Notes under the pieces: generated by a model
Database searches by the model: none
Told to the model about the DNA's origin: nothing
What the model saw: the letters and a program-made list of their open reading frames with translations, nothing else
Shown here: positions 30,437 through 53,424 of the stretch, one piece after another
Layout: every line of letters starts with the position of its first letter
How positions within the stretch are numbered: the stretch's first letter is position 1
Made by a program: the position numbers and the translations under genes
DNA from: an uncultured Gammaproteobacteria bacterium
GTDB lineage: Bacteria; Pseudomonadota; Gammaproteobacteria; CAWCPV01
NCBI GenBank assembly: GCA_963797555.1
Contig: CAWCPV010000014.1
Span: 288,001 to 352,000, forward strand
Reading direction: 5' to 3'
Length of the DNA stretch: 64,000 nucleotides

Positions 30437-31640
30437 TCAGCCCTCTTCGGGCTCGCGCGGCAGCGGCTCACCAGAAACCGAGTTTCGTCGCGCTGTAGCG
30501 ATCACCCGTGATTTCCATACCAGATAGACCGCTGGAATCACCGCAAGCGTGAGAAGGGCGACACTGACCATACCGCCCACCATGGGTGCCGCGATGCGCC
30601 GCATGACCTCCGATCCGGCCCCGTTCCTTAGCAGAATGGGCAGCAGCGCGGCGACGATCGCCGCCTTGGTCATGGTGACCGGCCGCAACCGCAGCAGCGC
30701 GCCCTCCACCACCGCAGCCTTGACGTCCTCCGGCGTCAGGCCGGCCGCGCCGCGCACCTCCCGCCGCCGCGCCAACGCTCGATCTAGGTAGAGCATCATC
30801 ACCACCCCGATCTCCACCACCACCCCGCCCAAGGCGATGAAGCCGATCGCCGAGGCCACCGAGAGATGGTAGCCGAGCAGGTACATGAGCCCGAAACCGC
30901 CCACCAGCGCGAGCGGCAAGGTCGCTAGGATGATAAGCATCCCCGTCAGGGTGCGGAAGTTGAGATACAGCAGCACCAAGATGAAGGCGAGGGTGAGCGG
31001 CACCACCAGCCACAGCCGCTCCTTCGCCCGCTCCCACTGCTCGTACTGGCCTGACCAGGCGACCGAGTAGCCCGGCAACAGCTCGACCCGGTCCGCCACC
31101 GCCTGTTTCGCCGCGGCCACCGACGATTCCCGGACCATGCTCAGAGACGGGCTCGCACCAAGGCGTCGGCTAACGCCGCGGGCTCGCACCAATGACATGT
31201 CGGTCATCTCGGCGCTGCCGCTCACCTTGTACCTCATCGGCGTTTCTTCCAGAACACCTGGCCCGCGCGCGGGATTGGGTGGCTCAGAGCTTGTGAAGAA
31301 ATCGTCGCGAGCGGCCCGAGAGCAAGGCGTACGGAGCGCAGCGACGAGACATATCAAGTAGATAGGCGAGGAGCGACCGAATGGCAGGACAGCCATTCGG
31401 CACGTCTGCGGGACGCCCCGAAGGGGTGGCGTACAGGGAGGTACGCCATGAACACCGCGCAACGCCGCTATCGGGACACGCACCAGATTTATTCACAAGC
31501 TCTCAGTCAGGTTCATGCCGCCTACTGCGGTGGCGATGACCTCGTGCACGTCTGCGACGTTCAGGCCGAGCCTCACCATTGCCCGGCGATCGGGGGTGAT
31601 CACGATGTATCTGCCCGCCGACAGCCGCTCGGCGATCGCC
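30437..31640 (-). pseudogene. cusA: CusA/CzcA heavy-metal RND pump remnant interrupted by a MITE
   Basis: C-terminal WSGQYE..RLRPVTMT..GSEVMRRIAAPMVGG; separate mid fragment AERLSAGRYIVITPDR..VIATAVGGMNLT at about 31505-31640. Confidence 0.8.
31287..31502 (+). mobile_element. MITE, best-preserved copy (216 bp)
   Basis: Perfect 11-bp TIR GAGCTTGTGAA / TTCACAAGCTC flanked by TCA on both sides; non-coding and hairpin-rich. Confidence 0.85.
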
Positions 31641-34700: not shown

Positions 34701-36159
34701 TGCCGAGCGCGTGGTCGTGGTAGAACATCAGCCGGGCGCTCTGCTGATTGGTGTAGTACATCGTCACCGCCCCTGGACCGGGGTCGTTCGTCGCCCCGGG
34801 GACCGAGCATGTCGTCTGCCCCGCGCAGGCCGTGACGGTATTGCCCGCAGCATCGAACCACATATCGGGGACGTTCTGCTCGCTGGCGCCCTTGGGGTAG
34901 GAGGTGGTTTCGCCCGCGGGTGTGTTCCACTGGTGAGGCGTCCCGTCGCTGATCCACGGGGTGGCGCCGCCATGGAGGTGCACGGTGGCGCGGTTCTGGG
35001 TGTACTCTTCCGTCCCCCCGTTGGGACCGGTCCCCACCCCCATGTAGGTGGTATCCGTCGGGATGAAGAGATCGCCGGCACGGTGACCGTTGACCGGCGG
35101 GCCAAAGGGCAGCTCGTTGATGTACTTCACGCGCACTGGCCTTGCCTTCTGCGCGACGATGACGGGTCCCAGGTACTGAATGTTGCTGCCGCCCGGGTCC
35201 GCCGGGTTGTTGACCTGCACGTAGCCCCGCAGTCGGGTGGGCGGCAGGTCCGAGTGCATCTGTTTCGTGTACTCCCGGAACGCGATCTCGTAGTAATCGG
35301 AGCCCGGATAGGTGGTCGTGTCCGGGACCGCAATCGGCAGAGACTGCCCGAGGTTGTTTGGGGTATTCAATTGCGGCAGGGAGTCCACGAACTTCCGCAT
35401 GCCGCCCGAGATGGTGGTGGTCGTGGTGCCGGTGTCGACGGTGGCCGCAATGGAGTACGTCCGAGTCTGCGAAAAGATTGGGAAGCCTGGGTCTACGCCG
35501 AGGGTAATCGTCCCACTCACCGAAGGCGCCGCGGGGGCCGGGTAGCTGAGGACGTCGGCACCGGATCCTGCATCGTCGACGGGGACACCTTCCCCGTAGA
35601 AGGCGATCACGTCACCCTGCTGCACGGGGACGCCCCCCGGCACTTGGAACACCGCCACTTCCGAGGCACCAGCCACAGTCGGGCTCGGCACTGTGAGCAG
35701 CCCGCTTTGATACACAACCGTGTATTGGTTCGCGGTGCCGGTAGGCCGCAGCACATAGGCATAGAAACTGCCATTCGTGTTAGTGCCGTCTCCGGCCGAT
35801 GGCGTCGGACTCCCCCCCGTCGTCGCCTGATTCCATGTGGAAAAGCTCTGGAGTGTGCCAGCGGGCAGCACCGCCGTGGGAATGACCACCAATACCGGGG
35901 CGAGCGGTGGTTGGCCGCTGAGCGGAGGGTAGTCGGTGGCATATTGGCGGTCGGCGTTCACCGCATTCCCGACCGTATTGAGCACCGGCGTGGAGGCGAC
36001 CACCGGGAGTGGGCTGTCGGCATAGTTGGGGTAAACGCCGAAATAATCCGGCGTCTGACCAGGCCCTGGCACTGCGGAAACCGTTACCGCTGCGGCGAGC
36101 CCAGCGGCACCAGCGAGCAGCGCCACCCGTCCCTGTAACGAGCGTCTGTGCCTGTTCAT
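31768..36159 (-). CDS. Large secreted multicopper oxidase with C-terminal FN3 domains (MofA/OmpB-like)
   Basis: All four Cu motifs: VHLHGG, MFYHDH, HAIHFHMFH, WHCHLLGHEENDM; signal peptide; three WTDNSANET-type FN3 repeats. Confidence 0.9.
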   Translation of the reverse strand: MNRHRRSLQGRVALLAGAAGLAAAVTVSAVPGPGQTPDYFGVYPNYADSPLPVVASTPVLNTVGNAVNADRQYATDYPPLSGQPPLAPVLVVIPTAVLPAGTLQSFSTWNQATTGGSPTPSAGDGTNTNGSFYAYVLRPTGTANQYTVVYQSGLLTVPSPTVAGASEVAVFQVPGGVPVQQGDVIAFYGEGVPVDDAGSGADVLSYPAPAAPSVSGTITLGVDPGFPIFSQTRTYSIAATVDTGTTTTTISGGMRKFVDSLPQLNTPNNLGQSLPIAVPDTTTYPGSDYYEIAFREYTKQMHSDLPPTRLRGYVQVNNPADPGGSNIQYLGPVIVAQKARPVRVKYINELPFGPPVNGHRAGDLFIPTDTTYMGVGTGPNGGTEEYTQNRATVHLHGGATPWISDGTPHQWNTPAGETTSYPKGASEQNVPDMWFDAAGNTVTACAGQTTCSVPGATNDPGPGAVTMYYTNQQSARLMFYHDHALGITRLNVYVGMAGAYVLQDPTEQTLVGNGTIPADQIPLVIQEKTFVPPTSGGFTNAVGTFNSQLEAQDPTWDTTNWGGFGQLWFPHVYMPNQNPYDISGANAMGRWDYGPWFWPPFTGLVYGPIANPMCNPTCPAGEPPTIPGTPDARLVSPSGSPESFMDTPVINGTAYPYVEVDPKPYRLRILSVANDRFFNLSLFVAADKTHPTTAGTTGAVLCDGTTPVNEADCTEVKMVPFNSTQDHAKPFPTWWYTRIPNGFTFDDRDGGVPDPDTRGPAMIQIGTEGGFLPGPVVIKNQPVNYVYNRRDIVVGNVNEKALLLGPAQRADVVVDFSPFAGKTLILYNDSPAPVPAADPRLDYYTGDPDQTDTGGAPSTLPGYGPNIRTLMQIRVRGSGGTGGVDYVNPTILSDLQTALPAAFASSQEPIIVPQNAYDPVYGTTTTDVPGVNFSTIQGTSLTFTPIGQTAPLTLELEPKSIIEDFTVDYGRMDAILGIEIRHTTIQNRTSIPQAYIDPPTELVRLTAAHGTPAIGEAADGTQIWKITHNGVDTHAIHFHMFHVQVINRVGWDGAIRKPDANELGWKDTVRMNPLEDVFVAIRPKTLDLPFKVPNSWRLLDPTQPPGVTTGFTGVDPNGNPVTVANEMTNFGWEHVWHCHLLGHEENDMMRTLAIVAPPEAPTNLSGSVSNGAANLSWTDNSANETSFTVQMATDANFTTGLTTFTVLPNVTTFQNPVGTQPAYFRVFASNTVGATVPNSAYPQLTAVSGFSNPVCVSQTAGVPAAPTGLTATLQTPANPTVRLAFSDHATNETGFVVQRSADSGATWNVIANLPPRNNVGGVSYTDTTVQKGNTYVYRVAAVAACAQSGYATSAPVVVPAPPAPPSNVQVTCARVGTTATARCTVTWTDNSANETGFRMQLANNAGFAPVTQTATVGANLTTWTSGNNLARNTSWYFHVQSYNAAGPSAYVNATPFPFPAPIN

Positions 36160-42096: not shown

Positions 42097-44754
42097 CTAC
42101 GCAACGCTCGCCGTGGGCGCCGATGAAGGCGCCGCGGTCAGCTCGCCGATCAGTGCCGTGGGCCGGCGCGCTAGCCCAGCGGCCAGCGACACGGTCAGGG
42201 AGGCGAGGTAAGGAATGGACTGGATGAGCAGGACCAAAATCCAGAGCAGCAGGTCCGGCGTGTCGGAGCCTTGTTGAATGGCGACGGCGGCGGCGGCGAA
42301 CCACAGCGCCCCCATGATCAGGGTCTCCTCGCGGGCCGAACGGAGTGCCTGGAGCAGCGCGTGCGATTTCGCCAGCTTCGGAGTACGGAAGAACGGCTTG
42401 TCTCGGGTGGCGAAGCCGTTGAGAATCGCCTTCGCGATGGTATGAGACAACGACAAGCCCGCGAAAGCCGCAGCGAGGGTCTGGGCGACGGTGGCGGAAA
42501 CCCGGCTGCGGTAAAGATAGACCAGCTTACCGGTCTTGAATACGAAAAGCGCCAGCGGCAGCGCCGAGAACATCACCAGGGGTGGGTCGACATGCTTGGG
42601 CATCAGCACCATCCCCACCGACCAGCAGAGCGCAGCCAAGTTGAACAGCAGGTTGATGCTGTCCGCTATCCACGGGAGCCAGCCCGCGACGAAGTGATAG
42701 CGCTGCCCCAAGCTGAGCCGCGTGTGTCTCCCAGCCAACAGAGCGCCGGCGTGTCGGCGCAGGATCTGCACCGCGCCGTAGGCCCACCGGAATCGTTGCT
42801 TCTGGAAGTCGACGTAGGTGTCCGGCATCAGCCCTTTGCCGTAGCTCTGCGGGATATAGGTGGCCTCGTAGCCTTGTTCGAAGATGCGCAGGCCCAGCTC
42901 GGCGTCCTCGGTGATGCACCATTCGGCCCATCCGCCGACCTCCACCAGGATGGACTTACGCACCATGGTCATGGTGCCGTGCTGGATGATAGCGTTCCTC
43001 TCGTTGCGGGTGATCATCCCGATATAGAAGAAGCCCCGATATTCCGCGTAGCACATGGCCTTGAACAGGCTCGCCTGCGCGTCCCGATAATCCTGGGGCG
43101 CCTGCACGATAGCGATGCGGGGCTTGGAGAACTGAGGCGCCAAGTCTCGAAGCCAGGCCGGGTCCACGACGTAGTCGCTGTCGATGACGGCGATGACCGC
43201 GGCGTCCGGGTCGGTGCGGGCCAGGGCATAGTTCAGTGCACCGGCCTTGAAGCCCGCCAGTGGAGTCACGTGGAAGAACCGAAAGCGGGCCCCCAACTTC
43301 CGGCAATGCGCCTCCACCGGCTCCCATACCCGAGGGTCCTCGGTGTTGTTGTCCACCACGATGACCTCGTACCGCGGGTAGTCGAGCCGCGCGAGAGCAT
43401 TCAGGGTCTCTATGACCATATCGGGCGGCTCGTTGTAAGCAGGCACGTGGACGGACGCCATGGGCAGATCTTCATCTGGAACACGCAGGGGTACGAACGC
43501 TCGACGCAATCCTGTGAGCCACAGCGCCTCGGCCCATTCGTGCGCCTCGGCCAACAGCACCACTACCACCCCGATCATTCCCAGGATCAGCAGCCCGCCG
43601 ACGATGACGGTGCTCACGGTGAGATACTGCTGCGTGTAGTCGTAAACGATCCACACCGCGGCCGTGGCCGCTGCGTAGGCGACCACCGCAAGAAAGCTAC
43701 GCCCGCGCTTGCGCAACGTCCGGCTATCCACGAGCAGGAGCGCGAAGGTGATCGCGGCGACCACGACCGAGATGATGGCCAGCACGCGCCACTCGGGCAC
43801 CCGGACGATGGGCTCCGAGAAGGTGAACTTGGGTTTCCTGTTCACGTCGTAGACGCCCCAGTAGGCACCCACGGAACCCTCGGTAACCCGTTTCCACGGC
43901 TGATCGAATGCTTCCATGATGTAGTAGACGTAATGCTCCTGAACGGCGCGCGCCAGGAAACGCCGCAGAAAGATGGCCTCGTTGGACTCGGAGGCGACCG
44001 CCGAGCGCCGCGTCCGGCCGTTGCTGGGCCAACCCACCTCGCCGATGACGATAGGCTTCCCCGGGAATACGGTCTTGAGTTGGTTCATCCGCTGCACCAC
44101 GTAATCCACCGCCTCGTCCAGGGCCACCCCTTCCCAGTAAGGCAGCATGTGGACGGTCACGTAGTCGACGTGTTTGGCAAGCTCCGGGTGGTGTATCCAG
44201 ACGTGCCAGGGCTCGGCGGTGCTCACCGGGATAGGGAGCGCATCGCGCACTTCGTCCAGGTATTTGCCCAACTGCTCGACCGTGAGTTCTCCGCGCAGCA
44301 CGGCCTCGTTGCCGACGATGATGCGAACGACGTTACGGGAATTCTCGCGGGCTACGCGGATGAGCTTTTGGATCTCGGCCTCGCTCTTCTTCGCGTCCGC
44401 GTCTACCCAGCCTCCTAGGGCCACGTTGATCCCATACTTGCGCGCGAGCGCCGGGATCTGGGCCAGAGTCCCCTCCACCGTATAGCTGCGCACCGCATGG
44501 GTCTTCCCTGCCAGGAGCGCCAAATCCGCATCGATCTGGTCGATGCTCGGCAGGATATGCTCGACAGGCGTCTGCCCGACCCGCATCGGCGAAAACGAGA
44601 ACCCCTGGATGCGGTCGGGCCACGGCGGCTCATCCTCCGGCTGGTTGAGCATGGCCCAGACGCTGATGGTGACCGCAGCGATCGCCACCCCGATCAGGAC
44701 ATTCACGCCGCTGACTCTAGTTTTCCGGCTGGGGGTTCTGAAAGACATCGACAT
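42097..44754 (-). CDS. ndvB: NdvB-like GH17-GT2 fusion, periplasmic (cyclic) beta-glucan synthase
   Basis: GH17 part: IVGNEAVLR, IGEVGWPS, EAFDQPWK. GT2 part: VPAYNEP, FKAGALN, IDSDY, ITEDAELG, QRFRWAYG. Confidence 0.85.
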   Translation of the reverse strand: MSMSFRTPSRKTRVSGVNVLIGVAIAAVTISVWAMLNQPEDEPPWPDRIQGFSFSPMRVGQTPVEHILPSIDQIDADLALLAGKTHAVRSYTVEGTLAQIPALARKYGINVALGGWVDADAKKSEAEIQKLIRVARENSRNVVRIIVGNEAVLRGELTVEQLGKYLDEVRDALPIPVSTAEPWHVWIHHPELAKHVDYVTVHMLPYWEGVALDEAVDYVVQRMNQLKTVFPGKPIVIGEVGWPSNGRTRRSAVASESNEAIFLRRFLARAVQEHYVYYIMEAFDQPWKRVTEGSVGAYWGVYDVNRKPKFTFSEPIVRVPEWRVLAIISVVVAAITFALLLVDSRTLRKRGRSFLAVVAYAAATAAVWIVYDYTQQYLTVSTVIVGGLLILGMIGVVVVLLAEAHEWAEALWLTGLRRAFVPLRVPDEDLPMASVHVPAYNEPPDMVIETLNALARLDYPRYEVIVVDNNTEDPRVWEPVEAHCRKLGARFRFFHVTPLAGFKAGALNYALARTDPDAAVIAVIDSDYVVDPAWLRDLAPQFSKPRIAIVQAPQDYRDAQASLFKAMCYAEYRGFFYIGMITRNERNAIIQHGTMTMVRKSILVEVGGWAEWCITEDAELGLRIFEQGYEATYIPQSYGKGLMPDTYVDFQKQRFRWAYGAVQILRRHAGALLAGRHTRLSLGQRYHFVAGWLPWIADSINLLFNLAALCWSVGMVLMPKHVDPPLVMFSALPLALFVFKTGKLVYLYRSRVSATVAQTLAAAFAGLSLSHTIAKAILNGFATRDKPFFRTPKLAKSHALLQALRSAREETLIMGALWFAAAAVAIQQGSDTPDLLLWILVLLIQSIPYLASLTVSLAAGLARRPTALIGELTAAPSSAPTASVA

Positions 44755-45228
44755 TCCGAGACAGAGAGCTTGTGCATGAAGCTGCTGCGCGTCCCGACGC
44801 GGCATCGCCCCGTGCTGGCGCCTCGCCTACCGAGTGACGCGTATCGTCGCTGCGCCCCGTGTGTGCTCCCGGGTCGCTCACGGCGATGTCTTCACATGTT
44901 CGGAGAGGCGCCGTCGGGGATGGCAGGGATCAGGACAACGGTGTTAACGGTTGCGCGAGGCTCGGGGGTCGCTTGCAGCGAAAAAGTCCACGCCTGGACG
45001 GGACCTCTGGCTGCGTTCCAGCGCTAGAAGCTTAACATCACACTCCGCCGAATCCAAACCGACCGCTGCTCCTGTCGCACGGTTCAGCGGGCCGGCGGAA
45101 GTCGGGCACCTGAGACCGGGTTAATCCACAGCCTGGCTGGGAGCCACCCGATGTACGCGGCGCCGACCTGCCGCGCCACCAGCCGACCCGTCGGCGGGCA
45201 GCGTGCACCATGGCGCGCACCCACAAAG

Positions 45229-45251
45229 AAAAGGCGGCCCGCAGGCCGCCT
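45229..45251 (-). terminator. Rho-independent terminator of cytochrome copy 1
   Basis: AGGCGGC-loop-GCCGCCT followed by a T-tract on the minus strand. Confidence 0.7.
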
Positions 45252-45317
45252 CGAGTAAGCTCTTCCAGGACACCCCCGCAAGCTCCCGCAGAGGTGTCCC
45301 GTCCCTGCTGGCGCGCG

Positions 45318-48197
45318 TCAGTCGCCGCCGCCGCCGGTGAACGGGTTACCGTGGCAAATGCCGCAACTCACCTGCGTGCCCCTGGTGATGGTGTGACCGC
45401 TCACCTGACGGTCCACCTTGGCCACCGAGAGCACCGTACCCTGACCTTGAGCCCCGTGGCAGGCCGCGCACTTTTGCCTGCCGCTACCGTCGGCCATGTC
45501 CTCGTGCCCGCCGTTGACGAAGCGGACATTGCCGACCGGGTGCATGCCGTGGGGTCCGTCCAGAGTAATCTGGTTATCCATGGCGGTGCCGTGGCAGGTG
45601 GAGCACTCGATGATGACGCCAGTGTGGCCCTGGAGCTGTCCGGCGGTCACGTTGTCGTTCGCCGCGAAGGTGCCGGCCGCGAACGGGTACAGGCCGTTGG
45701 CGGGCTGCGGGTCCACCGGCCACTCGGCGTGGGTGCTGCCGTGGCAAGCCTCGCAGAACACTCCGCCATGGCCGCTCTCACCGGCGTTGCTTCCGTTGAC
45801 GGTGAGCGGTACACCGCCGTTACTGACTCGATACAGCTTCGGGTTGTCAGAACCGCTTTGTCCATTGCCCGGCGTGCCGCTCACGGTATTCTCGGCGAAG
45901 CGCGGGTTGGATGGAACGATGGGTGCCGGTTGGATCGTGGCACAGTCCGTCAGGCTGGTGCAGTTGCCGCTCGCCAAGTAGGCCTGGAGCAGCCGGATCG
46001 TGTCGGTGGCATCGACCGACCAGGCCTTGACCAGGTTGCTGCTCGATACCGCGCCACACTTGCTCGGGTTGATGATGCAGTTGTCGAGCGCGTCGCCCGT
46101 ATGGCACGACCCGCAGCCGGGCTCATTCGCCCACGGCACCCGCGGTGTCGAGGGGGCGGGTTTCGCTCCGTTAGTCAGTTGATAGTAGTCGTTGGCCAGG
46201 CTGAACGACCCGCCGGGCTTGTTCTTGGAGAAGTCGTTGCCCACCTGCTGCATCTGCCCGTGGCAGTCCTGGCACACCACTCCGCCGCTCGCCATCGCGC
46301 CGCGCAGACACTTGGTGCGCGCACCCGGGTGACAGTTGTAGCAGGCGTGGTTCAACGTGCACTCGGTGGTGGACTGGCCCACGCAGTCCGGGTAGTCGTT
46401 GCCCAAGTTGCTGTTTGCGGTGACGGTGGCGTTCCGCGAGGAGGACGTGCGCACCGGCATGATGGGAAACACCGGGTCGTCCGCGACGGCGGTGCCGAAC
46501 CCGGCAGGGAAGGTCTGCGAACCGTGGAAGTTGTGCACCACGCGGGACATGGACTGGTTGTTGGTCTGTCCCGCCAAGCCCGGCAGGACAGAGTTGCCCG
46601 GACCGACCTGCAGCAGGTCCAGCGCCGGAGTGTAGTGGCAGGTCTGGCACACCACCGGATTCGTGGCGATGCCGTTGGAGTCGGTGTTATTCCCGTTGAC
46701 GGGTGACAGCGCGGGGCTGTACGCGTTGGGATCGCCGGAGCCCGGACCGTGATCCTCGTCATGCAGGGTCAGGATGTTGATGTCCGTGGCCCACTCCACG
46801 CTCACTGCGAGCGGTACTGACCCGTACTTGGGGTCGTCGATGGACGTTCTGATCATCGTGCCGAGACCGGCGGCCGTCGTCGCCAAGCCGTTCCCACCGT
46901 CTACCGGCGCGGCATGGCAGTTCTTGCAGTTCGCCTCGCCAGAGATCGGCGTCACGGTATCCAGCGAGGACAGCACCGAATGGCTGCTCTTGTCCCGCGC
47001 CTGGACCCGCATCAGCGGATAGGGGTTGATTCGCCCGGAGTCGTCGATCTCGGCGAGCGGAACCCCTTCCGCGGTGAACCAGTTGACGGTCGCGGTGTAG
47101 CCGAAGCTGCTGCCGAAGTTGGCGGAGAAGAACGGCAAGGTGCCGGTGTACAGCGCCATGCGCTGTGGGTTGTTGGCCGTGTACGCGGCGTCGGTGATGC
47201 TCCGGGGCTGGTTGGGCGGGTTGCAGCCCGTGCTGCCGAGGTTCGACGGCGTGCACGCATAGGGGGTGAGCGTCACGCTCGGCATGCCCTGCTGGTCCAG
47301 CAGCACCGTGCCCTGGGGGTATCCGTCCTTGCCGGCGAGGTAAAGCAGCTCGTTGTCCGGCACCGCCAGCCCCACATCGATGATGTTCAACGCCGCCGGA
47401 TAGAACAGCGCCAGCAAACCCGTCGGATAGAACGGGTCGTAGGCCTTGCGCGCCGTGTCCCAGAAATTGGACTTGAAAACGCCCGTGAAGGTGTAACCCG
47501 TGAAGCTCCGCGGCGGGTTGGGCTGCAAGGCCGGGTCCAGGACCGCGGGGTCGTTGGCGCTGGACGCCGCCGAGTACACGACCTCCACGCTGGAGTCGTC
47601 CAGGAGCTGCGGATGCGAGCCGGTCTGCACCACCTGGGCGTTGATCACGTTGAACGGCGGCAGGATGCTCAGCACCCGCGTGTCCAGGTCGCCGCAGTGC
47701 ATCCCCAGGTCGTTGACGGCGACGACCCTGTACTCCGACTGATTCGTCGGCGTCTGCTCCGGCACCGCCGTGGTCGGCACCGTGCTGTTGTTCGCACTGG
47801 TGGAGTTGATCGACTTGCTGGCGCCACCGCCACCGCCGCCGCCACCACCACCGTTGTTGCTGCAGTTGGCCGGGGCGTTGCTGACGCTCCGCGTGGCCGA
47901 GGAGCTGCCGGACTCGGCGCGCACCTTGCATGGCACCGGGCTCGGGTTGCTCTTGGTGAACGTCCAACTGCCCCTCCTGCTCGCGGTGGTGGTCCCGATC
48001 ACCACGAGATCGCCGGTATACTTGACCGTCACCGTGGCGCGGCTCGCTGCCCCGCTGCCGCTCACCGTGAGCGTATGGCTGCTGTTGCTCCAGCTCGCAC
48101 TACTGATAGTGAAGGCCGCCCAGGCGTTCCCCGCGAATGCCAGGGCGAGCAGGGAGCCGGCGAGCACCGGCCATCTCAGGCTGTTCCGTTGTTGCAT
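45318..48197 (-). CDS. Secreted multiheme cytochrome c with 9 CxxCH (copy 1)
   Basis: Signal peptide, poly-Gly linker, NDLGMHCGD domain; CKNCH, CQTCH, CYNCH, CQDCH, CGSCH, CEACH, CSTCH, CAACH, CGICH. Confidence 0.92.
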   Translation of the reverse strand: MQQRNSLRWPVLAGSLLALAFAGNAWAAFTISSASWSNSSHTLTVSGSGAASRATVTVKYTGDLVVIGTTTASRRGSWTFTKSNPSPVPCKVRAESGSSSATRSVSNAPANCSNNGGGGGGGGGGASKSINSTSANNSTVPTTAVPEQTPTNQSEYRVVAVNDLGMHCGDLDTRVLSILPPFNVINAQVVQTGSHPQLLDDSSVEVVYSAASSANDPAVLDPALQPNPPRSFTGYTFTGVFKSNFWDTARKAYDPFYPTGLLALFYPAALNIIDVGLAVPDNELLYLAGKDGYPQGTVLLDQQGMPSVTLTPYACTPSNLGSTGCNPPNQPRSITDAAYTANNPQRMALYTGTLPFFSANFGSSFGYTATVNWFTAEGVPLAEIDDSGRINPYPLMRVQARDKSSHSVLSSLDTVTPISGEANCKNCHAAPVDGGNGLATTAAGLGTMIRTSIDDPKYGSVPLAVSVEWATDINILTLHDEDHGPGSGDPNAYSPALSPVNGNNTDSNGIATNPVVCQTCHYTPALDLLQVGPGNSVLPGLAGQTNNQSMSRVVHNFHGSQTFPAGFGTAVADDPVFPIMPVRTSSSRNATVTANSNLGNDYPDCVGQSTTECTLNHACYNCHPGARTKCLRGAMASGGVVCQDCHGQMQQVGNDFSKNKPGGSFSLANDYYQLTNGAKPAPSTPRVPWANEPGCGSCHTGDALDNCIINPSKCGAVSSSNLVKAWSVDATDTIRLLQAYLASGNCTSLTDCATIQPAPIVPSNPRFAENTVSGTPGNGQSGSDNPKLYRVSNGGVPLTVNGSNAGESGHGGVFCEACHGSTHAEWPVDPQPANGLYPFAAGTFAANDNVTAGQLQGHTGVIIECSTCHGTAMDNQITLDGPHGMHPVGNVRFVNGGHEDMADGSGRQKCAACHGAQGQGTVLSVAKVDRQVSGHTITRGTQVSCGICHGNPFTGGGGD

Positions 48198-48214
48198 GTG
48201 CTCCTCCTTCCTGT

Positions 48215-48566
48215 CTTGGGTCGAAGCGTGGCAGCGGGTGGGAGTTGAGCCGCCCGCCGTCGCCGATCTGCGTCAGCGGGACTCCCTCTGCGGAGAACCA
48301 GTCGACGTTGTTCGCGACGTAGCCGAAGGACTGACCGAAGTTCGCGGAAAAGCGATGGTGGTCCCGATCACGACAAGATCGCCGGTATAGTTGGCGGTCA
48401 GCGCGGCGCGGCTCGCTGCCACGCTGCCGCTCACCGTGAGCGTATGGCCGCTGTTGCTCCAGCTCGCACTACCGATGCTGATAGTCGCCCAGGCGTTCCC
48501 CGCGAACGCCAGGGCGAGCAGCGAGCCGGCGAGCACCGGCCATCTCAGGCTGTTCCGCTGTTGCAT
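48215..48566 (-). pseudogene. Internally deleted third copy of the multiheme cytochrome
   Basis: Near-identical N-terminus, then a jump to an out-of-frame internal piece (FSANFGQSFGY..WFSAEGVPL). Confidence 0.8.
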
Positions 48567-48697
48567 GTGCTCCTCCTCCATGTCTTCGCGACCCCTCGCA
48601 CCGAAGCCAACGGCAGCGTTTGCGTCAGGATTGGTCCGCGAATCCCCGCCCGATGAGTGACGAGCCCACCGTGGAGCACTCCCGGAACGGGAATGCA

Positions 48698-48732
48698 AGT
48701 GTATAACCCAGACAACTTAAGGCAATATTAAC
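48698..48732 (-). promoter_or_regulatory. Putative promoter with TTAAT-N6-TTAAG direct repeat
   Basis: Minus strand GTTAATATTGCCTTAAG...TATACACTT; conserved at 52759-52794. Confidence 0.55.
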
Positions 48733-49093
48733 AACGCTGTGCCCCGCCGCCCTGGGCCGCCTGCGAGGCGGGCTGACCCACGGGACTCGTGCGGGGCGGG
48801 CGACACTGTTCGTCGCGCGAATGCGCGATCATTCATTCGCAGCGGCGCCCGATCCGGATCATGGTCGTCCAAGCTTCCAGCAGGGGTAATGGAAGAAGGA
48901 TGGCGGCTGGCTTCACATCGGCTTCAACCGACTTGGCCAAAGGAAAACTCGTGGAGACATCAAGTCGCCAGATGGTACGAACGACGTTACGTTAGCTCTC
49001 TCGGGCCACCTGGATGAGCGTTCGGACCTCGGCCTGGGTGTTCTTCGCATCCGCGTGGGCTCGCGAAACGTGGGCCACGGCGCACCAACAAAG

Positions 49094-49117
49094 AAAAAGG
49101 CGGCCCGCAGGCCGCCT
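49094..49117 (-). terminator. Rho-independent terminator of cytochrome copy 2
   Basis: Same hairpin as 45229-45251. Confidence 0.7.
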
Positions 49118-49211
49118 CGAGTAAGCTTCTCGTAGACACCTCCCCACATCCCCGCCGGGTCGTCCGACGGGGCCTGGTCCATTGGGGCGGCGTCCGTGCC
49201 GCCTCAACAGG

Positions 49212-52200
49212 CTACTGGTTCGCGCAGGTGCTGGTCCAGTAGCTCGTGTTATGACACACGGCGCAGCCTATGGGGTGACCCTTGGCCACGGTCTGCCCGC
49301 TGAAGGTGCGGTTTGCCAGCACGCGCGAGAGTGGGGTTCCGCAACTGGTGCTCCGGCTCGTGCCGCCGTGGCAGGCCTGGCAGTACGTGGTGTAGTTGGT
49401 GTTGGTGCTGCTGCCATTCACGCTGCGGTGGACGCTGCTGCTCGACCAGGGCGTGCTGGTCGCCGCGATCGGGTGCAGACCGTGCGGGCCGCCAAGCGTG
49501 CTGCCGAGGCTGGCCGAGCCGTGGCAGGTGGAGCAGTCGGCGATGAAACCGCTGTGGCCCTGCAACTGGTTGGCCGTCACGTTGTCGTTGGCGTTCGGAT
49601 TGGCGTTCGGCCACTCCGCATGCGTGCTGCCGTGGCAGGCTTCGCAGAAGATGCCGCTGTGCCCGCTCTGGCCTCCGCCGGTGGTGGCCTGGCCCCCGAC
49701 GCTCACCCGGTACAGCTTGGGATTGCTGCTGGCGGTGACGTCTTCGGCGAAGCGCTTGTTGGTGGGCACGATCGGCGTGGCCTTGGTGTCACCGGTCCGA
49801 TAGGCCTGGCGCAGACGCAGCGCGTCCTTGTACCCGTTGGTATCGCGGTTGTTGACCACAGTCCCCGTCGTACCGGCGAGGTTGCTGACCGCATCACCCG
49901 TGTGGCACGAGCCGCACGAAGGCTCGTTCGCCCAGGGCACGCGCGGCGTGTTGGCGTTGGTGTAGAAGTCGCCTGCCAGGATAAAGCTGCCGCCTGGCTT
50001 GTTCCGCGAGAAGTCGTTGCCGACCTGGGTCATGCCGCCGTGGCAATCCGAGCACAGCATGTTGCCGTTGAACATGGCACCGCGCAGGCATTTGGTGCGT
50101 TTGCCCGGATGGCACTGGTAGCAACTCTGATCGAGTGCCGCCAGACGCGCCGCCTGGTTGGTGATGGTGCCATCCGCCGCCTGCACCGGCGCCGGGATGG
50201 GCGGGAACAGGCTCGTCAACTGCCCGTGGTGGTTGTGCATGACACGCGACATGGACTGGTTGTTGGACTGCTGGCGGCCGTTGACGTCGTTCGGACCGAC
50301 CTGGGCCAAGTCGAGCGCCGGGGTGTAGTGGCAGGTCTGGCAAACCACCGGCCTGAAGGACGTTGCTCCTGCCGTCGGGAAGTCCTCCGTCGTTCCCGTG
50401 ATCAGGGACGTCCCATTACGCATGTCATGCAGCTTGAGGATGTTGTGGTCCGAGGCCCACTCGACGCTGACCGCGGATGGTACGTCGTTCCCGCTCGGAT
50501 CATTGATCGAGACTTGGGGGCTAGTGATCCCCACGGCCGTCGTCGCGGAGCCATTGCCGCCGTCCGCCGACGCCGCATGACAGCCTTGGCAGTTGGCCTC
50601 GCCGGAGATGGGGGTCACGGTGTCGATCGTGGCCAATACCGTATTGCCCTGCTTCGCCTGGACGCGCATCAGCGGATAGGGGTTCTCGCGCCCGAAGTCG
50701 TCGAAGGTAGAAAGCGGAATGCCCTCAGCCGCGAACCAGTTCACAGTTGCCGTGTACCCGAACGAGAAGTTCGGGAAGAACTGGATGTCGCTGTCGAACC
50801 GGGCAAAGGCCTGCGGGTCGTTGCTGGTGTACGGGCCCTGGATGCCCGGCATGGACTGCTGGGCGACCTGGAGGGTCGGCAGCAGGGCGGAGTCAGGCAC
50901 CGGGAGCCCCGTATCCGCTCCGATGGCCGGAGGCGTGATGTCAGTCGGGTAGAACGGATTGTAAGCCCCGGCGTTGAGGGTGTCCCAGAAGTTGGTCTTG
51001 TAGACGCCCTGGGAAGTGACGGAGCTCAGGACATTGCTCTGCGAGAGCACCGGGTCGTTGGGGTTAGAGACCGCCGAGTAAGCCACGCTCACGCCCGAGG
51101 GGTTGAGCGTCGGGGTGGCGCCCTTCTGCACCACCTGCGCATGCAGGACGTTGTACGGCGGCAGGATGCTCGCAATGCGCGTATCCAGGTCACCGCAGTG
51201 CATGCCGAGGTCATTGATGGCAAGCACGCTATACGTGGTGTTGGGCACCTGCGCCTGCTGCGGGACCGTCGATTGCGGGCAGCCGTCCTGGCTGGTGGAG
51301 TTGATGGACGTGTTCGGCTTGGCCGGGTTGGCGCAGGCCGTCGCCTGGCCCGTGCTGGCGCTCGCAATGTTCGAGTACCCGCTCAGGTTACCGGCCGCAT
51401 CCGTCGCCCGGGTACGATACCGGTAGGTGGTGTTCGCCGTCAGGCCGGTATCGTTGTACGTTGTCCCCGTCGGGGTCGCAATCTGGGCGAAGTTGGTGCA
51501 GCTCCCGCCCTGGCAGCGCTCGACACGGTAGCCGGTGACGCCCACGGCATCCGTGGAAGCCGTCCAGCTCAGGTTGATCTGGCTCGCGCCCGCTGCCGTT
51601 GCCGCGAGGTTGCTCGGCGCCGTAGGCGGCGTCGTGTCCGCGGTCTGCTGGGTGGTGGCGCTCGCAATGTTCGAGTACCCGCTCAGGTTACCGGCCGCAT
51701 CCGTCGCCCGTACCCGATAGCGGTAGGTGGTGTTTGCTGTCAGCGCCGTGTTGTTATAGGAGGTGCCGGTCGGGGTCGCAATCTGGGCGAAGTTGGTGCA
51801 GCTCCCGCCTTGGCAGCGCTCGACACGGTAGCCGGTGACGCCCACGTTATCCGTCGAGGCGGTCCAGCTCAGATTGATCTGGCTCGTGCTCGCTGCCGTT
51901 GCCGACAGGCTGCTCGGAGCGGTCGGCGGCGTGGTGTCCGCCGTCCCGATGTTCACCGTGAGGGCCAACGTGATCGAGATGCCAACGTTGCCCGCGGCGT
52001 CATAGGCTTTGGCCGTCCAGTTGTGGGTGCCGTTGGCGGCGCTCGTGATCCCCCAAGCGTAGCTGTACGGCGAGCTGGTGTCGGTCACCACCAGGCTCGC
52101 ACCGTCGTAGAACTCAACCCGCGTCACGCCCACGTTGTCGGAGGCATTGGCCGAGATGGTCACGGTCTGGGCGGTCGTGTAGCTCGGACCGGCTGGGGAG

Positions 52201-52623
52201 GCACTGATGGAGGCCGTGGGCGGCGTGGTGTCTCCTCCGCCTCCTCCACCTCCTCCTCCCTCCTCCTCTCCTCCGCCGCCATTGTCGCTACAATTGGACG
52301 GGGCGCCGCTGACGGCCCGCGTCGCGGAGGAGCCGCCGGACTCGGCGCGCACGTGGCAGGGCACCGGGCTTACGTTGCCCTGGAGGAACGTCCAGGTCCC
52401 GGACTGCTTCGCCGTCGTGGTGCCGATGACCGGTACGATCCCCGGAATACTTCAGGGTCACCGTGGCACCGCCCGCCGCTCCGCTACCCAACACGTAGAG
52501 CCGCTGCGAGGTCTGCCAGGTCGCACTACTGATGCTGATAGCCGCCCAGGCGTTCCCCGCGAACACCAAGCCGAGCAACGAGCCGGCGAGAGCCGGCCAT
52601 CTCAGGCTGTTCCGCTTTTTCAT
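49212..52623 (-). CDS. Secreted multiheme cytochrome c with 9 CxxCH plus Ig-like and two FN3 domains (copy 2); frameshifts at about 52380-52445
   Basis: MKKRNSLRWPALAG start at 52623; SDNVGVTRVEFY Ig domain; two WTASTD.VGVTGY FN3 domains; nine CxxCH motifs. Confidence 0.88.
51355..51940 (-). repeat. Tandem 300-bp duplication encoding two FN3 domains
   Basis: GCTCGCAATGTTCGAGTACCCGCTCAGGTTACCGGCCGCATCCG at 51360 and 51660. Confidence 0.9.
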
Positions 52624-52758
52624 GTGCTCCTCCTCCTCCGTGTCTTCGCTACTTCTAGCCCCGAGGCCAACGGCAGCGTTTGCACCGCGATTGGTCGGCG
52701 AATCCCCGCCCGATGATGAGTGACCAGCCACCGCGAACAATCCGGAAACGGGAATGTA

Positions 52759-52794
52759 AAGTGTATAGCCCACAAAAATTAAGGCAACATTAAC
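52759..52794 (-). promoter_or_regulatory. Putative promoter with TTAAT-N6-TTAAT direct repeat
   Basis: Minus strand GTTAATGTTGCCTTAAT...TATACACTT. Confidence 0.55.
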
Positions 52795-53289
52795 AAAGCT
52801 CAACCCGCCGTACTGGCCGGAGTGGTACGGGTCCGAGAGATCATCCGCGAGGGAGAGTTCGAGGTCGTACCGTTTCCCCGAGTTTTTCCCGGTCCGAAAA
52901 CGGCGAGATCGGCCGCACCGTGTCCGGCGATGACTCCTCGGATCATGTGCCGCGCCGAGACGCGACCGGCGTGTGCACGCGTAGCGCCCGCAGCACCACT
53001 CCCCGCAGTAGGATTCCGTGAGATGCGAGCGCGAGGTGCCGCGACTGAATTGGCAGGGCGGCAAGCGCTAAGCCAGCTCAGGGCGCACCCACAGCGCCGG
53101 CGCTGGCCAACCCATGCGCCTTGCGCCCCGACTTGCGGGTGGACGCGCTGGCGGAAAAACCGGGTGCGACCTACACTCGCTATGCGGACGGCGGTGGGCC
53201 GGGAATGCTCTCACTCGTAGCTCGTGGAGAATTGGTCGTGAGCGGCCCGAAGGTTAGGCGGGCGGCGACGTGACATGTTCAGCAGATGG

Positions 53290-53424
53290 GTGAGGAGCGA
53301 TCGAGTGGCAGGATAGCCATTCGGCACGTCCGCGGGACGCCCCGAAGGGGTAGCGTACAGGGAGGTACGCCATGACCGCCGCGCACGCCCGCTATCGGGA
53401 GGCGGAGCACTCCTTCACAAACCT
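53290..53424 (+). repeat. MITE family copy lacking its left end
   Basis: Same core; right end TTCACAAACCT followed by TCA. Confidence 0.8.

What the first reader, a model, noticed from the sequence alone, without database searches (positions are those of the whole stretch)
45200..52800. Tandem array of secreted nonaheme cytochromes, duplicated as whole promoter-gene-terminator units with a variable extension module
Seen: two paralogs, each with signal peptide, small N-terminal beta domain, poly-Gly linker, a heme-free NDLGMHCGDLDTR domain and nine CxxCH motifs. They share about 200 bp of upstream leader and the same terminator hairpin. Copy 2 carries an Ig-like and two FN3 domains inserted at the Gly linker. 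Established: Ig/FN3 domains act as extracellular stalks or adhesins. Inference: a short and a long-reach form of an extracellular electron-transfer or mineral-binding cytochrome that I cannot match to a characterised family.
Basis: partly seen in the sequence, partly recalled or inferred. Interest (0 to 1): 0.75.

Follow-up and report, generated by a model that had tools for sequence, protein, structure and literature searches.

The report
Tandem surface-type nonaheme cytochromes, c553o family
Two neighbouring genes and a decayed third copy encode nine-heme cytochromes on Ig-like stalks of different lengths; they belong to the little-studied cytochrome c553o family, whose methanotroph members are found at the cell surface and in the medium.

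Summary
The two paralogs are real. Copy 1 is 45318-48197(-), 959 aa. Copy 2 is 49212-52623(-). Each has a Sec signal, a small cap domain, a Gly-rich linker, a heme-free NDLGMHC domain and nine CxxCH. Copy 2 adds Big_7 and two FN3 domains.

- Copy 2 carries a one-base frame break at 52430-52432. All 4 related short-read contigs that span the site lack that base.
- A degraded third copy (48273-48566) lies between the genes. The ~175-nt leader is shared by this remnant and copy 2, not by copy 1 directly.
- The genome holds two more paralogs with other N-terminal modules.

The family can be matched. Copy 1 is 41% identical (E 3e-168, all nine hemes) to the 969-aa "cytochrome c5530 (c553o) family protein" of Methylococcus capsulatus Bath, identified as MCA0338 by name and length. 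MCA0338 is reported as surface-associated and found in culture supernatant.

The family is large: at least 689 species genomes, enriched in SoxB carriers. MtrB occurs in only 3 of 23 carriers. No solved structure matches.

Best reading: a secreted, surface-tethered electron-transfer cytochrome (confidence 0.62). It is a new member of a known but poorly characterised kind.

The parts
45231..45252 (-). Terminator-like hairpin after copy 1 (GAGGCGGCC..GGCCGCCTT plus a T-run), inside conserved block 45215-45280
   Evidence: 9 pairs, 7 GC; 45215-45280 vs 49080-49146, 87% over 67 nt, E 4.7e-16
45318..48197 (-). Copy 1 CDS, 959 aa, intact. Signal peptide 48117-48197; cap domain 47862-48116; Gly10 run 47823-47852; NDLGMHC motif 47694-47714; heme-free N-domain about 46923-47780; nine CxxCH from 46914-46928 to 45351-45365
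   Evidence: GC3 0.88. 41% identity to M. capsulatus Bath c553o-family protein P0392
48205..48566 (-). Degraded third copy. ATG at 48566, signal peptide and about 70 aa of the cap (48352-48586 is 91% nt identical to 47983-48217). Then an out-of-frame internal piece of the N-domain (48205-48351, FSANFG..VDWFSAEGVPL), running into the RBS of copy 1. The ORF stops at 48273
   Evidence: (C14:336205-336351 = window 48205-48351, 60% identity to residues 227-274 of the query). The remnant-copy 1 junction sequence also appears as a loose end of a contig of run X1 (table 7)
48567..48738 (-). Leader upstream of the remnant, and therefore of copy 1. Conserved with the copy 2 leader. Contains a GG-N10-GC sigma-54-like element (TGGGTTATACACTTGCA)
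   Evidence: The motif was read by eye. No sigma-70 consensus here. No Rfam family
49097..49118 (-). Terminator-like hairpin after copy 2, same stem as after copy 1
49212..52623 (-). Copy 2 CDS, about 1136 aa if one base is ignored. Signal peptide and cap 52284-52623, with a frame break at 52430-52432; Gly/Glu linker 52230-52283; Big_7 52011-52220; FN3 units 51652-51945 and 51352-51645; NDLGMHC 51195-51215; heme domain 49215-50645 with nine CxxCH
   Evidence: Frame break: table 4 (4 of 4 spanning contigs of runs X2 and X3 lack one base). AF2 model of the heme domain: pLDDT 81.6, pTM 0.84
52624..52800 (-). Leader upstream of copy 2. 79-81% identical to the remnant leader. The -12-like box reads TTTACA with one extra base

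Best explanation
[quoted passage not shown] Each protein is exported by Sec. This is shown only by the signal peptides and by the need of c-type heme attachment for export.

Inferred steps:
- The proteins are passed to the cell surface or the medium, probably by the type II secretion system.
- The N-terminus (cap domain; a lipid anchor in some relatives) is the attachment end.
- The Gly-rich linker, with or without Ig-like modules (none in copy 1; Big_7 and two FN3 in copy 2), is a stalk that sets the reach.
- The conserved head is the NDLGMHC beta-sandwich domain plus a chain of nine hemes. Each heme probably has two His ligands, so the head moves electrons rather than catalysing chemistry at an open heme.
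- The head therefore exchanges electrons between the envelope and an external partner (mineral, polymer-bound or shuttle). Direction and partner are unknown.
- The NDLGMHC domain is the likely docking or ligand site and may be tied to the heme domain through a conserved Cys pair.

With the two paralogs elsewhere, the genome holds four heads on four different N-terminal stalks. The array changes by tandem duplication (the FN3 pair) and by deletion (the remnant).
For: Homology to a family with localisation data:
- Copy 1 vs the 969-aa 'cytochrome c5530 family protein [M. capsulatus str. Bath]' (P0392): 41% identity over 865 columns, E 3e-168. The N-domain and all nine heme motifs align. The cap domain aligns separately at 43%, E 4e-17.
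- That protein is MCA0338 by name and unique length. MCA0338 is 969 aa; the other family members are 917-1158 aa.
- MCA0338 was found in culture supernatant at all three time points (59 unique peptides, 34% coverage). [quoted passage not shown]
- Other family members (MCA0421, 0423, 2160, 2259) rise 9-14 fold under copper limitation (PMC4831470, Table 1 and supplement).
- Deleting MCA0421 lowers anodic current (PMC6281684, passages).

Architecture of relatives:
- 118 of 120 best relatives carry the motif. 83 of the 118 have N-terminal extensions. Precomputed Pfam domains of the relatives include PKD, Calx-beta, cadherin-like, Big_7 and fn3; FG-GAP and Big_2 in P0236.
- About a dozen start with a lipobox followed by a Gly/Ser linker.
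- 167 of 177 end within 20 aa after heme 9.

Heme ligands: nine non-motif His are invariant or near-invariant in the heme domain. This is enough for nine bis-His hemes.

The head is one unit: of 36 sufficiently long representatives found with the N-domain alone, 34 have exactly nine CxxCH after it.

Genomes:
- All 23 carriers in a class sample have a GspD match at E <= 6e-88. By my conversion of E-values to bits, 21 are above the cut-off, against 275 of 400 overall.
- The window's own genome has GspD beside an OmcA/MtrC-MtrA-MtrB cluster.
- A giant adhesin-like gene lies directly downstream in 4 loci.
Against: - Nothing was measured for these proteins or this organism. The localisation evidence is from a 41%-identical relative.
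- The same supernatant list contains periplasmic proteins such as methanol dehydrogenase (Table 2), so leakage is possible.
- Only 3 of 23 carriers have an MtrB/PioB porin, so no known route across the outer membrane is present in most carriers. One carrier without MtrB (G150) encodes a protein that the exact look-up names from Methylococcus.
- No redox partner gene is conserved next to the gene. The only recurrent neighbour is a QseBC/PmrAB-like two-component system, directly upstream of 15 of 77 genes.
- The N-domain has many invariant polar residues (N, D, M-H-C, D, D, K, N, DD, N). This could mark a catalytic metal site rather than a docking site.
- Heme packing could not be examined.
- Copy 2 is frameshifted as assembled.
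Confidence: 0.62

Rival explanations
1. Periplasmic redox enzyme or electron carrier of sulfur oxidisers. The protein stays in the periplasm, soluble or tethered to the inner face of the outer membrane. The NDLGMHC domain is a catalytic or substrate-binding (metal or sulfur) site. The nine hemes pass electrons to periplasmic carriers. The Ig-like modules are only spacers.
For: - SoxB is present in 17 of 23 carriers against 152 of 400 in the sample. It is present in 12 of the 13 carriers whose match reaches into the N-domain.
- The own genome has SoxB on the same contig.
- MtrB is missing in 20 of 23 carriers.
- The N-domain has a strongly conserved M-H-C and Asp-rich constellation.
- Lipoproteins with Gly or Ser at +2 go by default to the inner leaflet of the outer membrane (textbook knowledge).
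- A 290-aa heptaheme gene lies directly downstream of the C5 paralog.
Against: - The homolog MCA0338 is reported at the surface and in the supernatant.
- Nine conserved distal His leave no obviously open heme.
- PKD, Calx-beta, cadherin-like and FG-GAP modules are typical of extracellular proteins (the generalisation is from general knowledge).
- No hit to any known periplasmic multiheme enzyme family in Pfam, NCBIfam or PDB sequences.
- Methylococcus-type carriers and alphaproteobacterial carriers are not sulfur oxidisers, or are not known to be.
Confidence: 0.2
2. The array is decaying. Copy 2 is a true pseudogene (frameshift after codon 64, so the heme body has no signal peptide), like the remnant. 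Only copy 1 is functional.
For: - The frame break is in the window.
- A clearly degraded third copy lies next to it.
- The paralogs on C5 (3 frame changes) and C10 (1) are also broken as assembled.
- A contig of run X1 identical to the window stops 2 bases before the site, so the same strain's short-read sequence at the site was not seen (table 8).
Against: - All 4 related contigs (2 runs) that span 52430-52432 lack one base there. That restores YSGDRTVIGTT, which aligns without gaps to copy 1 YTGDLVVIGTT.
- Copy 2 keeps all nine heme motifs, the motif domain and GC3 of 0.86.
- An unrelated gene in the window (DUF3604, 17484-19537) is also split.
- The assembly is 84.6% complete in only 20 contigs. 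This pattern fits indel errors; the link to long-read assemblies is my inference.
Confidence: 0.15
3. A divergent OmcA/MtrC-type outer-membrane cytochrome that works as the extracellular cap of the MtrAB conduit of this genome.
For: - Weak Pfam PF22113 hit in copy 2: 32 bits, cut-off 30. Many relatives carry a precomputed PF22113 hit.
- The own genome has MtrA, MtrB and GspD.
- The layout is analogous: a beta domain followed by a heme domain. One distant relative (P0241) has this unit twice.
Against: - No TIGR03507 hit for copy 1 or copy 2, while the genome's true OmcA/MtrC scores 549 bits.
- hhalign probability is 28% over 66 columns.
- Nine hemes, not ten. No lipobox in the window's copies.
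- MtrB is present in only 3 of 23 carriers.
- The genes are not near the Mtr cluster, which is on another contig.
Confidence: 0.05

Closest known systems
Cytochrome c553o family, MCA0338 of Methylococcus capsulatus Bath (annotated 'cytochrome c5530 family protein', 969 aa)
   Same: 41% identity, E 3e-168 over the NDLGMHC domain and all nine hemes. The same N-terminal cap domain (43% identity). SPI signal. An Ig-like module between cap and core. Ends right after heme 9.
   Different: - MCA0338 has one PKD module. Copy 1 has none. Copy 2 has Big_7 and two FN3.
- The host here is an uncultured SoxB- and MtrCAB-bearing gammaproteobacterium, not a methanotroph; no PmoA was found.
- Here the genes form a tandem array with a decayed copy.
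- No expression or localisation data exist for the window's genes.
Cytochrome c553o proper (occ, MCA0423, 1158 aa) and MCA0421, MCA2160, MCA2259
   Same: Same superfamily by annotation (PMC517821, passage). In genomes of the same genus as G150, 1050-1430-aa open frames, several of them clustered, match the family profile over both the N-domain and the heme part at E 1e-40 to 1e-92.
   Different: - Much more distant from the window's proteins than MCA0338, and longer.
- In M. capsulatus they are copper-repressed, and MCA0421 contributes to anodic current. Whether this holds here is unknown.
- The biochemical paper (Bergmann et al. 1999, PMC93468) is not held, so nothing from it was seen.
OmcA/MtrC/MtrF decaheme outer-membrane cytochromes
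   Same: Works-like: secreted multiheme proteins with a beta domain beside a heme domain, some relatives lipid-anchored with a Gly-rich tether. Weak PF22113 similarity.
   Different: Not a member. No TIGR03507 hit, nine hemes, a different N-domain, hhalign 28%, and not linked to MtrB in 20 of 23 carriers.
OcwA, nonaheme surface cytochrome of Thermincola potens
   Same: Nine hemes and a surface terminal reductase role (PMC6703420, seen only as a search listing and abstract start).
   Different: No sequence match in PDB chain sequences by phmmer or by profile. No structural match found (inconclusive). OcwA has no beta N-domain or Ig stalk (recalled, not from a call).

Membership tests
Cytochrome c553o family (M. 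capsulatus MCA0338 branch) | Full-length sequence homology to a named family member | tested here: met
   41% identity over 865 columns, E 3e-168, vs P0392. P0392 is named 'cytochrome c5530 family protein [M. capsulatus str. Bath]' and is 969 aa, which is the length of MCA0338.
Cytochrome c553o family (M. capsulatus MCA0338 branch) | Multiple c-type heme motifs in conserved order (nine CxxCH) after a heme-free domain | tested here: met
   nine CxxCH in copy 1, in copy 2 and in the 966-969-aa Methylococcus proteins, all aligned.
Cytochrome c553o family (M. capsulatus MCA0338 branch) | Sec signal plus N-terminal cap and Ig-like (PKD-type) module | tested here: met
   The cap aligns at E 4e-17. 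P0392 has PKD. Copy 2 has Big_7 and fn3. Copy 1 has the cap only.
Cytochrome c553o family (M. capsulatus MCA0338 branch) | Cell-surface or extracellular location | not testable with these tools
   Known only for MCA0338 and relatives, from the literature.
Cytochrome c553o family (M. capsulatus MCA0338 branch) | Copper-repressed expression | not testable with these tools
   Reported for MCA0421, 0423, 2160 and 2259. MCA0338 does not occur in the two held supplementary files of that paper. No RNA run was listed for the window.
OmcA/MtrC decaheme family (TIGR03507; PF22111/22112/22113) | Match to the family model above its cut-off | tested here: not met
   no TIGR03507 hit. The own-genome MtrC-like protein scores 549 bits. 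Only PF22113 at 32 bits in copy 2. hhalign 28%.
OmcA/MtrC decaheme family (TIGR03507; PF22111/22112/22113) | Ten hemes in two pentaheme domains, and a lipoprotein signal | tested here: not met
   Nine CxxCH and AxA signal peptides.
OmcA/MtrC decaheme family (TIGR03507; PF22111/22112/22113) | Genomic association with the MtrAB porin-cytochrome module | tested here: not met
   MtrB/PioB in 3 of 23 carriers. In the own genome the Mtr cluster is on contig C20 and the window is on C14.
NrfA / OTR / HAO / OcwA-type multiheme enzymes | Sequence or structural similarity to solved members | tested here: inconclusive
   No PDB sequence hit. Foldseek gave only 3 rows, all E >= 7. VIA-wide best Z 4.3 on one helix. 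Structural aligners are weak on heme-defined folds.
NrfA / OTR / HAO / OcwA-type multiheme enzymes | A heme with an open or non-His distal position (catalytic heme) | tested here: inconclusive
   Nine conserved non-motif His are available for nine hemes. Ligand assignment could not be checked on coordinates.
Fibrillar-adhesin-like stalk (Ig-like tandem modules) | Tandem Ig-like/FN3 domains between the anchor end and the functional head | tested here: met
   (Big_7, fn3 twice). (FN3 tandem repeat, 88% nt). (extensions in 83 of 118 relatives).

The most novel reading that the evidence does not exclude
The NDLGMHC domain is a new redox-linked docking or metal-binding module. It would be tied to the heme chain by the conserved Cys pair; the one relative that lacks one Cys lacks both. 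On this reading the c553o-type head is a porin-independent device for extracellular electron exchange. It would be used far beyond methanotrophs, by sulfur oxidisers including chemosynthetic symbionts of clams and tubeworms. Cells would tune its reach by keeping several heads on stalks of different length.
Probability: 0.2. Interest if true: 0.75.

Novelty: new member of a known kind. Interest (0 to 1): 0.48.

Why it matters
In 2004 the c553o family was described as unique to M. capsulatus (PMC517821, passage).

What was found here:
- The head (NDLGMHC domain plus nine hemes) occurs in at least 689 species-representative genomes and in 915 clusters at 50% identity.
- It is frequent in sulfur-oxidising Gamma- and Betaproteobacteria, including lucinid and tubeworm symbionts.
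- Carriers mostly lack an MtrB-type porin.
- There is no Pfam model for the N-domain and no solved structure.

If the surface electron-transfer reading holds, many chemolithotrophs have an unstudied way to exchange electrons with their surroundings.

This locus offers a natural short and long stalk pair for testing whether reach matters. It also shows how such arrays change: module duplication, gene decay and conserved ends.

Tried and rejected
- PDB by sequence: phmmer and a profile gave only noise.
- Structure:
  - Whole-core AF2 model (pLDDT 62.6, pTM 0.75): Foldseek nothing at E <= 0.001. VIA-wide best Z 4.2, generic Ig/p53-like sandwich for the N-domain.
  - Heme-domain model (pLDDT 81.6): Foldseek 3 rows at E >= 7. 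VIA-wide best Z 4.3 on one helix.
  - Model coordinates cannot be read, so heme packing and the position of the MHC loop were not examined.
- Rfam on 44800-53400: one chance miRNA row, E 0.36.
- Sigma-70 scan: 1 site, inside copy 2, against 0.9 expected.
- The leader was not found at the C5 or C10 paralogs.
- No RNA holder was listed for the stretch.
- Fused longer forms: none found among proteins of 1680-4795 aa, which is weak evidence.
- Earlier notes of this scan: nothing.
- ESM Atlas on the N-domain: only generic cytochrome clusters with scores <= 0.91.
- Literature:
  - Searches found no paper on this family under multiheme, nonaheme, Calx-beta, PKD, Thiodiazotropha or sulfur-oxidiser terms.
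  - The Ferrigenium 'NHC' (10.64898/2026.01.22.701106, passages) is a different, membrane-anchored protein.
  - Passages of PMC5566968, PMC10734462, PMC11267869 and PMC11748539 do not mention it.
  - The link came from recalling the M. capsulatus surface cytochromes and testing that lead.
  - Bergmann et al. 1999 could not be read.
- MtrC membership was rejected (see Membership tests).
- hhalign to the genome's 918-aa multiheme protein gave 92% probability, but only over hemes 6-9. I take this as generic.
- One search failed on a reference with stop codons. It was repeated without that reference.

Full report
WHAT IS IN THE SEQUENCE

On the minus strand lie two large genes. Copy 1 (45318-48197, 959 aa) is one open frame. 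From the N-terminus it reads:
- a signal peptide ending AWA|A;
- an 85-aa cap domain with two Cys, which gives only sub-threshold Ig-like Pfam hints;
- a run of 10 Gly;
- a heme-free domain of about 270 aa that starts with NDLGMHCGDLDTR;
- nine CxxCH.

Copy 2 has the same parts. Between its Gly/Glu linker and the core it also has a Big_7 domain (61 bits) and two fn3 stretches (70.6 bits). The two FN3 units are themselves an 88% identical tandem repeat at the DNA level. Both genes end in the same hairpin plus T-run, inside a 67-nt block that is 87% identical.

First, copy 2 is not open from its start codon. The ATG at 52623 and the first 64 codons are in a different frame from the 1050-aa body. 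The span 49212-52623 is 3n+1 bases long.
- I laid contigs of four public runs on 51800-53000. All four related contigs that span 52430-52432 (two in X2, two in X3) lack one base there (table 4).
- Without that base the protein reads YSGDRTVIGTT, which aligns without gaps to copy 1 YTGDLVVIGTT.
- A contig of X1 identical to the window stops two bases short of the site, so the same strain was not seen at that position.
- The two paralogs elsewhere in the genome are also broken as assembled: three frame changes on C5 and one on C10. So is an unrelated DUF3604 gene in the window.
- The assembly is 84.6% complete in only 20 contigs.
- I therefore think an assembly indel is more likely than a pseudogene (about 0.7 to 0.3). 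This is not settled.

Second, a degraded third copy sits between the genes.
- Positions 48352-48586 are 91% identical to the first 235 nt of copy 1 including its RBS.
- After about 70 codons the reading jumps, out of frame, to a short piece of the end of the N-domain (48205-48351, 60% aa identity to copy 1). It then runs straight into the RBS of copy 1.

Third, the shared leader is shared by this remnant and copy 2: about 175 nt, 79-81% identical. Copy 1 resembles the others for only about 20 nt upstream of its ATG. No terminator-like site was found between the remnant and copy 1. Copy 1 is therefore probably transcribed from the remnant's leader; this is an inference. The leader occurs nowhere else in the genome and matches no Rfam family.

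At the 5' edge of the conserved block the remnant leader reads TGGGTTATACACTTGCA, which is a GG-N10-GC sigma-54-type pattern. In copy 2 the second box is TTTACA with one extra base. The assignment is unproven. Larsen and Karlsen mark putative sigma-54 promoters in the M. capsulatus cytochrome clusters (PMC4831470, figure legend passage).

The gene bodies are old paralogs: 44% aa identity and 67-69% nt. The ends are more alike at 77-91% nt. This fits duplication of whole units followed by conservation or conversion at the ends.

THE FAMILY

The core finds more than 3316 proteins at E <= 0.001 among 8000 scored candidates. Typical hits are about 45% identical over 99% of the query.
- 118 of the 120 best hits carry the ND[LIVM]G[LIVM]HC motif, and nearly all have nine CxxCH.
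- 35 of the 118 are minimal: signal peptide, then core. The other 83 have 130-590 aa before the motif.
- The precomputed Pfam domains of the hits include PKD, Calx-beta, cadherin-like, Big_7 and fn3.
- About a dozen start with a lipobox followed by a Gly/Ser run. 28 of the 118 have the same cap domain.
- 167 of 177 proteins with nine or more CxxCH end within 20 aa of the last heme motif.

The N-domain alone, searched against 1.84 billion representatives, finds 915 clusters at E <= 0.001 and 366 at E <= 1e-10. Of 36 hits long enough to judge, 34 have exactly nine CxxCH after the motif. N-domain and heme chain are therefore one unit.

One distant relative (P0241) has the unit twice, each time with seven hemes, two of them CX4CH.

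By record titles they include Thiobacillus, Gallionellaceae, Rhodocyclaceae, Chromatiales, Sedimenticolaceae, Thiohalobacter, many Ca. Thiodiazotropha, tubeworm endosymbionts, Hyphomicrobiales and Acidobacteriota.

CONSERVED RESIDUES

In the heme domain nine His outside the motifs are invariant or nearly so. That is enough to give each heme a second His.

Outside the heme motifs two Cys are conserved. One is in the motif (C38). The other is in CHPGxxTxCLRGAM (C500). Of 96 aligned full sequences, 95 have both and one (P0236) has neither. This is a single co-loss. It is consistent with a disulfide or a shared site and no more than that.

The N-domain also keeps N, D, M, H, two D, K, N, DD and N. 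This could be a Ca or other metal site, or a docking surface.

STRUCTURE

The whole core folded poorly (pLDDT 62.6). The N-domain is a beta sandwich with only generic Ig/p53-like matches (best Z 4.2).

The heme domain of copy 2, folded with a more diverse alignment, gave pLDDT 81.6 and pTM 0.84. It has no match in the PDB: Foldseek gave 3 rows at E >= 7, and VIA-wide gave best Z 4.3 on one helix. PDB sequences give nothing either. These negatives do not show a new fold, because aligners do badly on heme-defined folds.

WHICH KNOWN FAMILY

The proteins are not OmcA/MtrC.
- There is no TIGR03507 hit, while the genome's own MtrC scores 549 bits.
- hhalign probability is 28%.
- They have nine hemes, not ten.

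I recalled the surface cytochromes of Methylococcus capsulatus and tested that lead.
- In an even sample of the window's class, 24 of 401 genomes including the window's own have a match at E <= 1e-30.
- One carrier, G150, has two PmoA genes.
- In G150's family, 17 of 61 genomes match, including 8 of 8 in its genus. Each genome of that genus has one strong 966-969-aa member plus several weaker, longer ones that are often clustered.
- Exact look-up of five of these 966-969-aa proteins placed them in one 90% cluster. That cluster includes 'cytochrome c5530 family protein [Methylococcus capsulatus str. Bath]', 969 aa.
- In the supplement of Indrelid et al. 2014, MCA0338 is the only c553o-family protein of 969 aa. 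The others are 917, 1062, 1069, 1107 and 1158 aa.
- Copy 1 aligns to this protein at 41% identity over 865 columns (E 3e-168), with the N-domain and all nine hemes. The cap aligns at 43%.
- The Bath protein has one PKD module where copy 2 has Big_7 and two FN3.

WHAT THE LITERATURE SAYS ABOUT THAT FAMILY (only what I saw)

- Ward et al. 2004 (PMC517821, one passage) list six members and call the family unique to M. capsulatus.
- Indrelid et al. 2014 (PMC4257694, passages, Table 2 and supplement rows) predict MCA0338, MCA0423 and MCA2160 to be extracellular T2SS substrates.
  - They found MCA0338 in culture supernatant at all three time points (59 peptides, 34% coverage).
  - They cite Karlsen et al. 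2008 for its peripheral attachment to the surface.
  - The same table lists some periplasmic proteins, so leakage cannot be excluded.
- Larsen and Karlsen (PMC4831470, passages and a supplement table) report 9-14 fold induction of MCA0421, 0423, 2160 and 2259 under copper limitation.
- Tanaka et al. 2018 (PMC6281684, passages) show that deleting MCA0421 lowers anodic current.
- Bergmann et al. 1999 and Karlsen et al. 2008 were not available.

GENOMIC ASSOCIATIONS

The sample tallies below include four genomes flagged as unpublished: G037, G115, G260 and G270. None of them is a carrier.
- GspD scores above its cut-off in 275 of 400 genomes. All 23 carriers other than the window's genome have a match at E <= 6e-88. 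By my conversion of E-values to bits, 21 are above the cut-off.
- MtrB/PioB is present in only 3 of 23 carriers. It is absent from G150, which encodes a protein named from Methylococcus. Lack of MtrB therefore does not argue against a surface location, but the route of electrons across the outer membrane is unknown.
- SoxB (E <= 1e-60) is present in 17 of 23 carriers against 152 of 400 overall. It is present in 12 of the 13 carriers whose match includes the N-domain. Relatives are not independent, so this is a tendency and not a test.
- Neighbours: a QseBC/PmrAB-like two-component system (all matches below the NCBIfam cut-offs) lies directly upstream of 15 of 77 family genes. A giant adhesin-like gene lies directly downstream in 4 loci. 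Otherwise nothing is conserved.

THE HOST GENOME

The host is an uncultured gammaproteobacterium. Its UvrB is 79-87% identical to MAG proteins; the nearest names include Thiohalomonadaceae and Thiohalobacteraceae. It has SoxB and no PmoA.

On contig C20 a cluster encodes GspD, an OmcA/MtrC lipoprotein, a 918-aa multiheme protein, MtrA and MtrB. These are followed by a PdsA-like diheme protein and an FccB-like flavoprotein.

The genome has four family paralogs with four different N-termini:
- C10: signal peptide, Pro6, core;
- copy 1: signal peptide, cap, Gly10, core;
- C5: signal peptide, PKD-like domain (23 bits, below cut-off), Big_7 (64 bits), core;
- copy 2: signal peptide, cap, linker, Big_7, FN3, FN3, core.

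VERDICT

The interpretation as a secreted electron-transfer cytochrome with a short and a long stalk is the best-supported reading, mainly through homology to MCA0338. The statement that no characterised family matches is wrong.

Still unknown: direction, partner, the role of the NDLGMHC domain and the true state of copy 2.

This is a new member of a known but poorly characterised kind. The main added value is the breadth of the family outside methanotrophs and the graded stalks in one genome.

Noticed in passing
window 31768-36159 (-): 1463-aa ORF with only a weak multicopper-oxidase hit (Cu-oxidase_2, E 2e-6). Possibly a large MofA/OmpB-like oxidase.
   Followed up: no
window 17484-19537 (-): A DUF3604 gene is split into at least two frames: profile positions 40-328 and 474-591 lie in separate ORFs. 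This looks like the same kind of frame break as in copy 2.
   Followed up: partly
window 4288-5613 (+) and 30437-31483 (-): A Tn5-type transposase, and an AcrB C-terminal fragment covering only profile positions 825-1019 of 1021.
   Followed up: no
window 12508-13290 (-): A SoxA/TsdA-type diheme cytochrome c. Together with SoxB on the same contig it points to sulfur oxidation.
   Followed up: no
window 42097-44805 (-): A 902-aa fusion of a GH17-like domain and a GT2 glycosyltransferase (glucan-synthase-like), directly downstream of copy 1.
   Followed up: no
L090 (G000:C20:12000-31000): A complete Mtr-type module: GspD, an OmcA/MtrC decaheme lipoprotein, a 918-aa multiheme protein with a CarboxypepD_reg domain, MtrA/DmsE and MtrB. 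Next to it lie a PdsA-like diheme cytochrome and an FccB-like flavoprotein.
   Followed up: partly
L094 (G000:C5:8000-25000): A 290-aa heptaheme cytochrome lies directly downstream of the C5 paralog. An octaheme protein fused to HEAT/TPR repeats lies 5 kb away.
   Followed up: no
L095 (G000:C10:77000-95000): A Crp/Fnr-family regulator lies directly upstream of the C10 paralog, on the same strand.
   Followed up: no
protein P0241 (900 aa): A distant relative with the unit (short NDLGMHC domain plus seven hemes, two of them CX4CH) repeated twice, and a 179-aa C-terminal domain of no known family.
   Followed up: partly
G097, G206, G257, G312, G339, G382: In these genomes the family profile matches only from about position 245 onward, that is the heme part, in ORFs of 583-707 aa. 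This may be a sister group with a different or no N-domain. Four of the six lack SoxB.
   Followed up: no
window 52430-52432; L085 and L087 frame-change sites: The frame changes do not lie in long homopolymers. They lie in short GC-rich palindromic contexts: ACCGGT, CCCGGCC, GAGCTC. This may reflect systematic basecalling errors at modified motifs, which is speculation.
   Followed up: partly
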